DNA from: a virus
Taxonomy: Duplodnaviria; Heunggongvirae; Uroviricota; Caudoviricetes
DNA: 36,117 nucleotides
Virus record (IMG/VR): IMGVR_UViG_2563366924_000002
Span: 1-36,117 of that record
Reading direction: 5' to 3' (one strand)
Shown here piece by piece: positions 33,101 through 34,026 of this stretch; the first letter of the stretch is position 1, and each line of letters begins with the position of its first letter. Below the pieces are notes generated by a model. It searched no databases. It was not told the DNA's origin and worked only from the letters and a program-made list of their open reading frames with translations. The position numbers and the translations under genes were made by a program.

Positions 33101-34026
33101 CCGCCACGCAGATAAACGGCATTACGGCTACGGTGAACGGGCATACCTCAGCCATCACCACTAATGCTCAGGCGATAGCCAACGTTAATGGCGACCTCAG
33201 CGCGATGTATAACATCAAGGTTGGCGTTTCCAGCAACGGTCAGTATTACGCCTCGGGCATGGGGATTGGCGTTGGGAACACGCCGTCAGGCATGCAGTCG
33301 CAGGTTATCTTCCTGGCTGACCGCTTCGCCGTCACCACGGCAGCCGGAAATAGCGTAGCTTTGCCGTTCGTGATCCAGAACGGGCAGACATTCATCCGGG
33401 CCAGCTTCATCCAGGACGGCACCATTGAGAACGCCAAAATCGGCAACTATATCCAGTCCAACAACTATGCAGCTGGTTCTGCTGGCTGGAAGTTGAATAA
33501 AGCTGGAGATGCTGAATTCAACAATGTGACCGTCAGAGGTGTAGTATATGCTAGTGGCGGTAGCTTTACTGGTGAGATCCAAGCAACAAGCGGTAAGTTC
33601 AAAGGAACTGTAGAAGCGCAAAGTTTTATCGGTGATGTATGTAACATGGGTGTTGCTGACGATTTATACGGCGAAGGTAGTACATTTGACATGACGCGTA
33701 CAATCACCTATATGGATACAGCTAATACAACCAAGACCATCACAGTCATGGCTAACATTTCTGGTGTTCCTAACTATCCAGGGTCGTTACTAGGGGTGGA
33801 GATCACCGTGAATGGTGTTACAAAAAGCGCATCCGCAGGTACATCCATTCGGGATTCAGAAAGAGGTATGCTGTCCACGTCTGGTACAGTTATGGCCACT
33901 TTTATAGGTGTTACTTCGGCAACTGTAACTGCAAAAATTGTATTTAAGCAGGGCGCTACTAAAAGATGGCTAAGAAGTCCAACCATGATTGTGACAAGGG
34001 GATCAGGATCATTTAGTTACTCATAA
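30172..34026 (+). CDS. J: Host specificity protein J (central tail fibre)
   Basis: 1284 aa; conserved N-terminal two thirds; compositionally distinct AT-rich C-terminal region. Confidence 0.9.
   Translation: [1284 protein letters not shown]

What the first reader, a model, noticed from the sequence alone, without database searches (positions are those of the whole stretch)
33480..34026. Compositionally distinct C-terminal domain of J suggests a swapped receptor-binding module
Seen: the last 180 codons or so of the J gene are clearly more AT-rich than the rest of the gene and the tail module. Established: the C-terminal domain of lambda J determines receptor specificity and is exchanged horizontally between lambdoid phages. 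Inference: a host-range module acquired from a different lineage.
Basis: partly seen in the sequence, partly recalled or inferred. Interest (0 to 1): 0.4.

Follow-up and report, generated by a model that had tools for sequence, protein, structure and literature searches.

The report
Swapped receptor-binding module in tail-tip J
The end of this prophage's tail-tip gene J really is AT-rich and is inherited separately from the rest of the gene; it encodes the domain that recognises the host cell and is shared with unrelated virulent coliphages, which is a clear but ordinary case of host-range module exchange.

Summary
Inside J (30172-34026, 1284 aa), GC3 falls from 0.64 to 0.35 at codon 1098 (nt 33466). 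This exceeds all 2000 codon shuffles, and GC2 does not fall. The low-GC tract continues about 800 nt beyond the J stop.

J is a mosaic:
- 30172-32758 is 95% identical to Enterobacter phage LAU1.
- 32839-33635 is 92-94% identical to HK97 and the Nissle prophage.
- 33406-34490 is 90% identical to the virulent Nonagvirus phage PD328. PD328's J body is otherwise only 14-28% identical in protein.

The composition step marks where homology to Nonagvirus J genes begins. HK97 shows the same step. The allele-specific crossover lies further downstream, at about 33597-33633, just after the FIGD motif.

The cassette holds a 129-aa jelly-roll receptor-binding domain, a bidirectional terminator and a minus-strand accessory gene. 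That gene is broken here by a 14-nt deletion. The cassette lies between two conserved arms: a linker and an 87-nt stub of a side-tail-fibre gene. Tail codon usage resembles Nonagvirus J genes, which suggests import into the lambdoid lineage.

The allele is rare (1 of 50,697 phage records, 2 of 5,426 E. coli genomes). Its receptor is unknown. It is a new member of a known kind.

The parts
30172..34026 (+). J (tip attachment / central tail fibre) gene, 1284 aa
   Evidence: ORF. Pfam FNIII-A_GpJ (aa 97-222), Phage-tail_3 (348-479) and Phage_Tail_Tip (994-1131). It follows a lambda-I-like gene at 29531-30118. PDB sequence hits include lambda J and other J-like tail-tip proteins.
30172..32758 (+). 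J body segment of the LAU1/AsXd-1 type (Hendrixvirinae of Enterobacter)
   Evidence: blastn gives 95.1% identity to LAU1 and 94.6% to AsXd-1; HK97 is only about 72% here. Protein identity to LAU1 is 96-100% over aa 1-850.
32839..33635 (+). Distal fibre segment of the HK97 / Nissle-prophage type
   Evidence: blastn gives 92.0% identity to HK97 and 93.9% to the Nissle prophage; LAU1 matches only 32965-33500, at 80%.
33466..33636 (+). Low-GC3 conserved linker (aa 1099-1155, [12 protein letters not shown]...[11 protein letters not shown]), which serves as the left homology arm
   Evidence: The GC3 change point is at 33466 and linker GC3 is 0.31. DNA homology to Nonagvirus J genes starts at 33377-33406. 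The linker is near-identical in HK97, Nissle, 9g, PD328 and JenK1. At sites that distinguish HK97 from PD328, the window follows HK97 up to 33632.
33637..34023 (+). C-terminal receptor-binding domain, 129 aa (aa 1156-1284), PD328-type allele
   Evidence: The window follows PD328 from 33633 onward. tblastn finds it at 87.5% aa identity in PD328 only, among 50,697 phage records. The AF2 model is a beta-sandwich with pLDDT 88-96, and the best Foldseek hit is the lambda J fibre bound to LamB, 8xcj, E = 1.4e-7. dN/dS against relatives is 0.17-0.25.
34026..34051 (.). Hairpin between the convergent J gene and accessory gene, likely a bidirectional terminator
   Evidence: The terminator scan finds an 11-pair stem followed by a T-run. 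It is conserved in PD328, E. coli 21AR0133 and the IMG/VR loci.
34053..34317 (-). Accessory small secreted-protein gene (phrog_2243), disrupted by a 14-nt deletion at 34192/34193
   Evidence: The gene is intact (92-96 aa) in six relatives. The window alone lacks 14 nt, which gives a premature stop. The intact PD328 protein matches phrog_2243, function unknown, E = 8.5e-29. The gene occurs only in PD328, ESCO3, JenK1, HdK1 and HdSG1 among deposited phages.
34404..34490 (+). 5' stub of a Nonagvirus-type side tail fibre gene (MAIRLQGILVDG...), which serves as the right homology arm
   Evidence: blastn gives 95% identity to 9g, and the stub lies inside the matches to PD328 (90%), JenK1 (90%) and the Nissle prophage (98%). 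Its translation hits the N-termini of PHROG tail fibre families. The reading frame is cut at 34511.
34491..34750 (+). 3' remnant of a DUF6453 / phrog_1265 membrane-protein gene
   Evidence: It matches only profile positions 229-289 of 291 in PF20051 and 248-332 of 332 in phrog_1265. It is shared at 98% with the Nissle prophage.
34747..35655 (+). HK97-like junction followed by the functional side tail fibre gene (34828-35655)
   Evidence: 34747-34898 is 98% identical to HK97. Pfam Gp53-like_C is found, and GC returns to 0.50.

Best explanation
The last 186 codons of J, plus about 460 nt downstream (33466 to about 34490), form a host-recognition cassette with its own evolutionary history.

It has these parts:
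- a 57-aa conserved linker ending in FIGD;
- a 129-aa trimer-type jelly-roll receptor-binding domain (RBD) that forms the distal tip of the central tail fibre and should bind an outer-membrane receptor, as the lambda and HK97 J tips bind LamB;
- a bidirectional terminator;
- a convergently transcribed small secreted-protein gene, presumably a receptor-masking or superinfection-exclusion factor, which is inactivated here.

The cassette sits between two arms that are highly conserved in both temperate HK97-like phages and virulent Nonagvirus phages: the linker, and the first 87 nt of a side-tail-fibre gene. RBD alleles are therefore exchanged by homologous recombination. In this phage an HK97/Nissle-type J received the PD328-type allele through a crossover at about 33597-33633. 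The right-hand crossover was in or beyond the fibre-gene stub.

The low GC3 and the codon usage of the whole cassette match Nonagvirus genomes. The cassette family most likely entered the lambdoid J lineage from low-GC virulent siphoviruses.

Shown: the composition step, the mosaic map, the breakpoints, the allele distribution, the gene disruption and the predicted fold. Inferred: receptor binding, the role of the accessory gene and the direction of transfer.
For: - Composition. GC3 is 0.64 in the body and 0.35 in the tail, a difference beyond all 2000 permutations, and it is synonymous only.
- Codon usage. RSCU of the tail correlates with the J bodies of PD328 and 9g (r = 0.46 and 0.44) and is negative against its own body (-0.28). 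The body correlates with HK97 and LAU1 bodies (r = 0.92 and 0.93). Nonagvirus J genes show only a small drop by comparison (GC3 0.38 to 0.31 in PD328, 0.37 to 0.35 in 9g), whereas HK97 shows the same large step as the window.
- Mosaic map and breakpoints.
- Protein identity to PD328 J jumps from 0.14-0.28 over aa 1-1050 to 0.90 over aa 1101-1200.
- Clean cassette replacement. Compared with the Nissle prophage, both flanks match (32839-33635 at 94%, 34404-34898 at 98%) and nothing matches in between.
- One allele on at least three unrelated J bodies.
- At least eight divergent RBD alleles follow the same FIGD hinge and share a framework (TYxDS...NG...SPT..TRGSGSF).
- Fold. AF2 pLDDT is 87 overall. 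Foldseek's best hit is the lambda J fibre with LamB, 8xcj, E = 1.4e-7. The lambda sequence aligns at the same GD hinge.
- Purifying selection on the RBD, dN/dS 0.17-0.25.
- Literature. HK97 adsorbs to LamB (PMC6832061). Distal GpJ domains specify LamB, TolC or NupG, and the locus downstream of gpJ carries cognate exclusion factors (PMC8594841; bioRxiv 10.64898/2026.04.02.716166).
Against: - No receptor is identified, and no experiment links this allele to adsorption.
- The composition step and the allele-specific crossover are about 170 nt apart. Composition alone therefore does not date or locate this phage's swap.
- dS of 0.24-0.38 to every known copy means that no sampled genome is the donor.
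- The accessory protein has no lipobox and no known function. It accompanies two different RBD alleles (PD328-type and JenK1-type), so its pairing with a receptor is unproven.
- The direction of transfer rests only on composition.
Confidence: 0.8

Rival explanations
1. There was no transfer. The AT-richness reflects the amino-acid composition or local constraints of a beta-rich fibre tip, and the whole gene evolved vertically.
For: GC1 also drops in the RBD (0.40), and tail-fibre tips often have unusual amino-acid composition.
Against: The fall is mainly in GC3 (0.64 to 0.35) while GC2 rises. LAU1's alternative J ending has GC3 of 0.75. Similarity to relatives changes abruptly at the same place: LAU1 goes from 100% to 0%, and PD328 from about 20% to 90%.
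Confidence: 0.02
2. The low-GC linker plus RBD is an old, vertically inherited feature of HK97-like J genes. This phage's allele diverged in place, without a recent swap.
For: HK97 and the Nissle prophage share the same composition step and an almost identical linker. The window's linker is of HK97 type.
Against: Flanks that are 92-98% identical to HK97 or Nissle enclose an RBD that cannot be aligned with theirs at the DNA level and aligns only weakly as protein, yet is 90% identical in nucleotides to PD328. The switch at informative sites is sharp, at 33633. The co-transferred accessory gene and fibre-gene stub are also PD328/JenK1-like.
Confidence: 0.05
3. The cassette is real, but transfer ran the other way: Nonagvirus phages picked up J tips from lambdoid prophages of their hosts.
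For: Virulent phages can recombine with resident prophages. Allele copies exist in both groups in similar small numbers.
Against: The GC3 and RSCU of the cassette fit Nonagvirus J bodies, not lambdoid ones. The stub left in the lambdoid genomes is the 5' end of a Nonagvirus-type side-fibre gene. It is truncated and non-functional there but begins a full-length gene of about 1200 codons in PD328, 9g and JenK1.
Confidence: 0.12
4. The C-terminal domain is not itself the receptor binder. It is an adaptor that holds a separately encoded receptor-binding protein, as in T1-like and many Drexlerviridae phages.
For: In Drexlerviridae and relatives, specificity for FhuA, BtuB, LptD or YncD lies in separate proteins encoded downstream of gpJ, and the GpJ tip co-varies with them.
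Against: No candidate RBP gene lies between J and the side-fibre gene. There is only a broken 92-aa secreted-protein gene and two gene fragments. The domain is homologous to the HK97/9g allele, and HK97 adsorbs to LamB without a separate RBP. The best structural match is the lambda J tip in complex with LamB.
Confidence: 0.05

Closest known systems
Lambda J C-terminal receptor-binding domain (LamB binder; PDB 8xcj/8xck)
   Same: Same gene, the same position at the extreme C-terminus after a (V/I)GD hinge, and a beta-sandwich tip on a trimeric fibre. It is the best Foldseek match. Its role as host-range determinant is established for lambda.
   Different: Only about 17% sequence identity in the Foldseek alignment, and phmmer E = 0.34 for the tail alone. 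The receptor here is unknown.
HK97 / Nissle-prophage / phage 9g J-tip allele (HK97 adsorbs to LamB)
   Same: Identical linker, a homologous RBD framework, the same low-GC3 composition and the same cassette position. It is likewise shared between temperate Hendrixvirinae and virulent Nonagvirus.
   Different: A different RBD allele that cannot be aligned at the DNA level. It is paired with a different accessory gene, a true lipoprotein with an LTAC lipobox (phrog_12984). HK97 itself has no accessory gene.
'Bona fide RBP locus' downstream of gpJ in Drexlerviridae, Dhillonvirus, Nonagvirus and Seuratvirus (BASEL collection, PMC8594841)
   Same: A hypervariable locus at the 3' end of gpJ, next to a small exclusion-type gene and bounded by the conserved far 5' end of the lateral fibre gene. 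Alleles are exchanged across phage families.
   Different: Here specificity is fused to J rather than encoded as a separate protein. The cassette sits in a temperate HK97-like prophage, its accessory gene is broken, and the fibre gene 5' end is only a stub.
JenK1 / HdK1 / HdSG1 orphan allele (no receptor assigned in BASEL)
   Same: The same downstream accessory gene (80-86% aa identity to PD328's), the same linker and the same fibre-gene arm.
   Different: The RBD itself is a different allele, not detected by tblastn at E <= 1e-3.
Cor (phi80/N15/T1) and Llp (T5) receptor-blocking lipoproteins
   Same: A small exported protein encoded next to the receptor-binding determinant. That position suggests receptor masking.
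   Different: The phrog_2243 protein has no lipobox and no detectable homology to any named family. Its function is untested, and the gene is disrupted in this window.

Membership tests
Lambda-type tip attachment protein J (TipJ / GpJ) | Domain architecture: FNIII-A_GpJ, Phage-tail_3 and Phage_Tail_Tip (DUF1983) | tested here: met
   Pfam E-values are 9.9e-46, 2.4e-12 and 2.7e-47. PDB hits to lambda J (E = 1e-111) and other J-like proteins. NCBIfam lambda_TipJ scores 464 bits, below its 1950-bit 'exception' cut-off, which is tuned to lambda's own protein.
Lambda-type tip attachment protein J (TipJ / GpJ) | Gene position after the tape measure and the M/L/K/I tail-tip genes, and before the side tail fibre genes | tested here: met
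   Tape measure at 24255-27722, minor tail proteins at 27970-29531, an I-like gene at 29531-30118, then J, stf and tfa.
Lambda-type tip attachment protein J (TipJ / GpJ) | C-terminal domain folds like the lambda J receptor-binding tip | tested here: inconclusive
Lambda-type tip attachment protein J (TipJ / GpJ) | C-terminal domain binds the outer-membrane receptor and sets host range | not testable with these tools
   This needs adsorption or plaque assays on receptor mutants.
HK97/9g-type (LamB) J-tip allele | RBD sequence close to HK97 gp24 residues after FIGD | tested here: not met
   The RBDs cannot be aligned at the DNA level and share only framework residues. Database proteins carrying the HK97-type RBD are only 52-61% identical to the window over the linker plus RBD.
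Exchangeable gpJ-distal host-recognition cassette of small siphoviruses (BASEL 'RBP locus') | Hypervariable segment at or after the 3' end of gpJ, bounded by conserved J sequence and by the conserved 5' end of the lateral fibre gene | tested here: met
   The arms at 33377-33636 and 34404-34490 are conserved in HK97/Nissle, 9g, PD328 and JenK1, and the interior is variable.
Exchangeable gpJ-distal host-recognition cassette of small siphoviruses (BASEL 'RBP locus') | Adjacent small accessory (exclusion-type) gene | tested here: inconclusive
   The gene is present on the minus strand and conserved in six relatives, but it is frameshifted here and its function is unknown.
Exchangeable gpJ-distal host-recognition cassette of small siphoviruses (BASEL 'RBP locus') | Allele can be matched to a known terminal receptor | tested here: not met
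   The only phage with this allele is PD328, and no receptor for it was found in the papers read. The neighbouring JenK1-type allele is reported as unmatched.
Cor/Llp-type exclusion lipoproteins (for the accessory gene) | Lipobox (L-[AS]-[GA]-C) and family homology | tested here: not met
   The signal peptide MKTLICAIILSMTATFAYA/SG has no lipobox (read directly from the sequence). There are no Pfam or NCBIfam hits, only phrog_2243 of unknown function. By contrast, the 9g/Nissle accessory protein has LTAC.

The most novel reading that the evidence does not exclude
The PD328-type J tip, together with the phrog_2243 secreted protein that accompanies both it and the still-unassigned JenK1/HdK1/HdSG1 allele, recognises an outer-membrane receptor not yet assigned to any E. 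coli siphovirus. On this reading phrog_2243 is a new, non-lipoprotein class of receptor-masking or exclusion factor. Its relatives on conjugative plasmids would point to a wider exclusion role.
Probability: 0.25. Interest if true: 0.5.

Novelty: new member of a known kind. Interest (0 to 1): 0.3.

Why it matters
The locus gives a fully mapped example of a host-range cassette, with both homology arms and its breakpoints. The cassette moves between temperate HK97-like prophages and virulent, DNA-hypermodified Nonagvirus phages. That is useful for predicting receptors from genomes and for designing J-tip swaps in engineered phages. The conserved linker ending in FIGD, together with the 87-nt fibre-gene arm, is a natural pair of recombination sites for such swaps. 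The allele itself is rare and has no assigned receptor, so it is a candidate for receptor discovery. The principle of modular exchange at the J C-terminus is already well established, so the result adds detail to known biology and does not change it.

Tried and rejected
- The first protein search with the RBD alone returned only 5 partial proteins. They were of little use beyond showing that the allele is rare.
- The GTDB species-representative scan found one locus only: a 2.6-kb Nonagvirus-like contig in a Sulfoacidibacillus assembly, almost certainly contamination. It did not reveal the host of the window.
- I expected JenK1, HdK1 and HdSG1 to share the RBD, because they matched in DNA. tblastn and alignment showed that they share only the linker and the accessory gene, not the RBD.
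- Literature searches for a receptor of PD328, JenK1 or HdK1 found none.
- No tandem repeats were found in the window's J, unlike the E. coli 21AR0133 homologue.
- Pfam, NCBIfam and PHROGs gave no family for the RBD itself.
- I considered that the window's junctions might be an assembly chimera. I rejected this because the same HK97-type linker joined to a PD328-type RBD recurs in E. coli 21AR0133 and ET245 and in an IMG/VR contig.
- The PADLOC library was not searched.
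Full report
**Context.** The window is a mosaic lambdoid (HK97-like, Hendrixvirinae-type) phage or prophage. Its early region is 96-98% identical to E. coli prophages. Its head and tail genes are closest to Enterobacter phage LAU1, 'Aeromonas' phage AsXd-1 and coliphages Fraca and mEp235, at 90-94% with partial coverage. The tail module runs tape measure (24255-27722), minor tail proteins, an I-like gene (29531-30118), then J (30172-34026, 1284 aa), then a gp53-like side fibre gene (34828-35655) and a tail-fibre assembly gene (35677-end). J has the lambda J architecture: FNIII-A_GpJ, Phage-tail_3 and Phage_Tail_Tip.

**1. The observation.**
- GC in 300-nt windows is 0.55-0.59 before 33400 and 0.40-0.46 from 33400 to the end of J.
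- The likelihood change point is nt 33436 for all positions and nt 33466 (codon 1098) for third positions. GC3 is 0.641 upstream and 0.348 downstream.
- The LLR of about 28 exceeds the largest value, 9.9, from 2000 codon permutations.
- The change is synonymous. GC2 rises from 0.44 to 0.53 while GC3 halves.
- No 186-codon window in the other structural genes reaches so low a GC3.
- The tract does not stop at the stop codon. GC stays at 0.31-0.41 until about 34827.

**2. What is there.** DNA comparisons show that J is a mosaic.
- 30172-32758 is 95% identical to LAU1 and AsXd-1. HK97 is only 72% identical here.
- 32839-33635 is 92-94% identical to HK97 and to a prophage of E. coli Nissle 1917.
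- 33406-34490 is 90% identical to the virulent Nonagvirus (Queuovirinae) phage vB_EcoM_PD328.
- 34404-34898 is again 98% identical to the Nissle prophage, and 34747-34898 is 98% identical to HK97.

At the protein level, identity to PD328 J is 0.14-0.28 for aa 1-1050, 0.52 for aa 1051-1100 and 0.90 for aa 1101-1200. Identity to LAU1 J is 0.96-1.00 for aa 1-850 and zero after aa 1150. LAU1's J ends differently and is followed by two extra genes and cor. That is the architecture with a separately encoded RBP.

**Two nested boundaries.** The composition step (33436-33466) coincides with the point where any DNA homology to Nonagvirus J genes begins: 33377 for 9g, 33402 for JenK1 and 33406 for PD328. 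HK97, which carries a different tip allele, has the same step (GC3 0.66 to 0.38). The step therefore marks an older junction common to this class of J genes.

The next 57 codons (aa 1099-1155, [57 protein letters not shown]) form a linker that is nearly identical in HK97, Nissle, 9g, PD328 and JenK1. At sites that distinguish HK97 from PD328, the window follows HK97 up to 33632, apart from two PD328-like sites between 33597 and 33617. From 33633 onward it follows PD328. The allele-specific crossover therefore lies at about 33597-33633, at the FIGD hinge. The higher synonymous divergence from PD328 in the linker (dS 0.46) than in the RBD (dS 0.24) agrees with this.

**The cassette.** After the hinge come four elements:
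- A 129-aa C-terminal domain (33637-34023).
- A conserved hairpin terminator (34026-34051).
- A convergent minus-strand gene (34053-34317) for a small protein with a signal peptide, a Gly-rich stretch and a conserved C-terminus containing two cysteines. It belongs to phrog_2243, function unknown.
- The first 87 nt of a Nonagvirus-type side tail fibre gene (34404-34490, MAIRLQGILVDGLNKPIVNANV...). This is the start of a gene of about 1200 codons in PD328, 9g and JenK1, but here it is cut off after 35 codons.

This 87-nt piece is conserved in 9g (95%), PD328, JenK1 and the Nissle prophage (98%), so it is the right-hand homology arm. Beyond it lies the 3' remnant of a DUF6453/phrog_1265 membrane-protein gene (34491-34750), and then the HK97-type approach to the functional side fibre gene.

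Relative to the Nissle prophage the picture is a clean cassette replacement. Both flanks match at 94-98%, and the roughly 770 nt in between (33636-34403) are unrelated. Nissle carries the HK97/9g-type tip and the 9g-type lipoprotein gene.

**The accessory gene is dead here.** Six relatives have an intact 92-96-codon gene: PD328, JenK1, E. coli 21AR0133, two IMG/VR contigs and a contaminant contig. The window alone lacks 14 nt at 34192/34193, which creates a stop after the Gly-rich part.

**Distribution.** The RBD allele is rare.
- Among 50,697 deposited phage genomes, tblastn finds it only in PD328 (87.5%), plus a remote relative in Enterobacter phage AS5 (33%).
- Among 5,426 complete E. coli genomes, only two (21AR0133 and ET245) carry it, at 89% nucleotide identity.
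- IMG/VR holds two copies. One is in a 61-kb Nonagvirus-like contig with a 1047-aa J. The other is in a 42-kb lambdoid contig whose 1314-aa J is only 48-78% identical to the window over the first 750 residues.
- The GTDB representative set gives one hit, which is evidently contamination.

One allele thus sits on at least three unrelated J bodies: LAU1-like, HK97-like and Nonagvirus. This is the opposite of co-variation.

The tip is under purifying selection, with dN/dS of 0.17-0.25. HK97, which carries a homologous allele, adsorbs to LamB (PMC6832061). Large screens associate distal GpJ domains with LamB, TolC or NupG (bioRxiv 10.64898/2026.04.02.716166).

I therefore infer that aa 1156-1284 is the receptor-binding tip of the central fibre and that it confers a specificity different from HK97's. 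Which receptor it binds cannot be told from sequence. BASEL reports that the neighbouring JenK1/HdK1/HdSG1 locus, which has the same accessory gene but a different RBD allele, matched no known receptor (PMC8594841). By position the accessory protein may be a receptor-masking or exclusion factor, but it is not a lipoprotein and it has no annotated relatives.

**Direction of transfer (inference).** Codon usage of the tail correlates with Nonagvirus J bodies (r = 0.44-0.46) and is negative against its own body (-0.28). The body correlates with HK97 and LAU1 bodies (r = 0.92-0.93). Nonagvirus J genes have GC of about 0.445 and GC3 of about 0.38 throughout, with only a small drop at the tail. The truncated side-fibre stub in the lambdoid genomes is the beginning of a complete gene in Nonagvirus phages. 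Together these observations favour import from low-GC virulent siphoviruses into the HK97-like lineage. dS of 0.24-0.38 shows that the actual donor has not been sampled.

**4. Comparison with what is known.** Modular exchange at the J C-terminus is textbook for lambdoid phages. The hypervariable recognition locus at the end of gpJ, bounded by the far 5' end of the lateral fibre gene and shared across Drexlerviridae, Dhillonvirus and Queuovirinae, was described by the BASEL study and extended to Hendrixvirinae in a 2026 preprint. This locus is a member of that kind. What this analysis adds is the exact anatomy, the rare allele with no assigned receptor, and the inactivated accessory gene.

**5. 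Verdict.** The locus is a new member of a known kind, of modest interest (0.3).

Noticed in passing
L013 2502-2729 (minus strand; E. coli plasmid pZ1322HEC0006_1-2); corresponds to window 34052-34138: The conserved C-terminal half of the accessory protein (…GVSNIE.Q…AEWMKGK.VK.DCSPAMNR.GWSEGCK) has an 87-nt match at 87-88% identity on 52 E. coli plasmids, 34-52 kb among those listed. In the one inspected, it is a 75-aa signal-peptide protein lying between a YadA-C-domain adhesin gene and type IV secretion/conjugation genes. This hints at an exclusion-type role.
   Followed up: partly
window 23848-24198 (+): A 116-aa ORF with GC 0.32 and GC3 0.29, lying between the tail assembly chaperone gene (23181-23564) and the tape measure gene. 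It has no PHROG family and was found only in AsXd-1, coliphage SaltyDalty and, distantly, a Klebsiella prophage. From memory, this is the position of the HK97 gp15 superinfection-exclusion moron, but the ORF gave no tblastn hit to HK97.
   Followed up: partly
L004 about 1062-2035 (E. coli 21AR0133 prophage J); corresponds to window 32839-33122: The J homologue in E. coli 21AR0133 is 1620 aa. It carries several tandem copies, about 99% identical to the window, of the roughly 285-nt segment that is single-copy in the window. This would give a longer central fibre shaft.
   Followed up: no
window 34404-34511 and 34491-34750: Two gene fragments lie between J and the working side-fibre gene: a 35-codon 5' stub of a Nonagvirus-type side fibre gene and the last ~85 codons of a DUF6453 membrane-protein gene. 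RefSeq annotates the latter as a 'DUF6453 family protein' CDS in Nissle 1917 and E. coli 21AR0133, although it matches only the end of the family profile.
   Followed up: partly
L010 (NZ_MPDK01000063.1, Sulfoacidibacillus thermotolerans Y002 contig63, 2664 nt): A short contig in a Firmicutes genome assembly is 88.5% identical to window 33379-34490 and has Nonagvirus-like GC (0.437). It is probably coliphage contamination of that assembly.
   Followed up: partly
window 32758-32965 (J aa ~851-950): A second internal mosaic junction in J. The LAU1-like segment ends at 32758 and the HK97-like segment starts at 32839. Protein identity to LAU1 drops to 0.38-0.60 over aa 851-950 before recovering.
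   Followed up: no
L006 (JenK1) 1501-2566; E. coli CUPF06 (H115): JenK1, HdK1, HdSG1 and ESCO3 carry the same accessory gene as PD328 (80-86% aa identity). JenK1, the one examined, has a different RBD allele, and tblastn found the window's allele in none of them. E. coli CUPF06 likewise has the accessory gene without this RBD. Either two RBD alleles share one receptor, or the accessory gene is not allele-specific.
   Followed up: partly
window 1-4000: The left end of the window (the early/regulatory region, with genes on the minus strand) is also low in GC (0.38-0.45) compared with the structural module (about 0.53). This is typical lambdoid mosaic composition.
   Followed up: no
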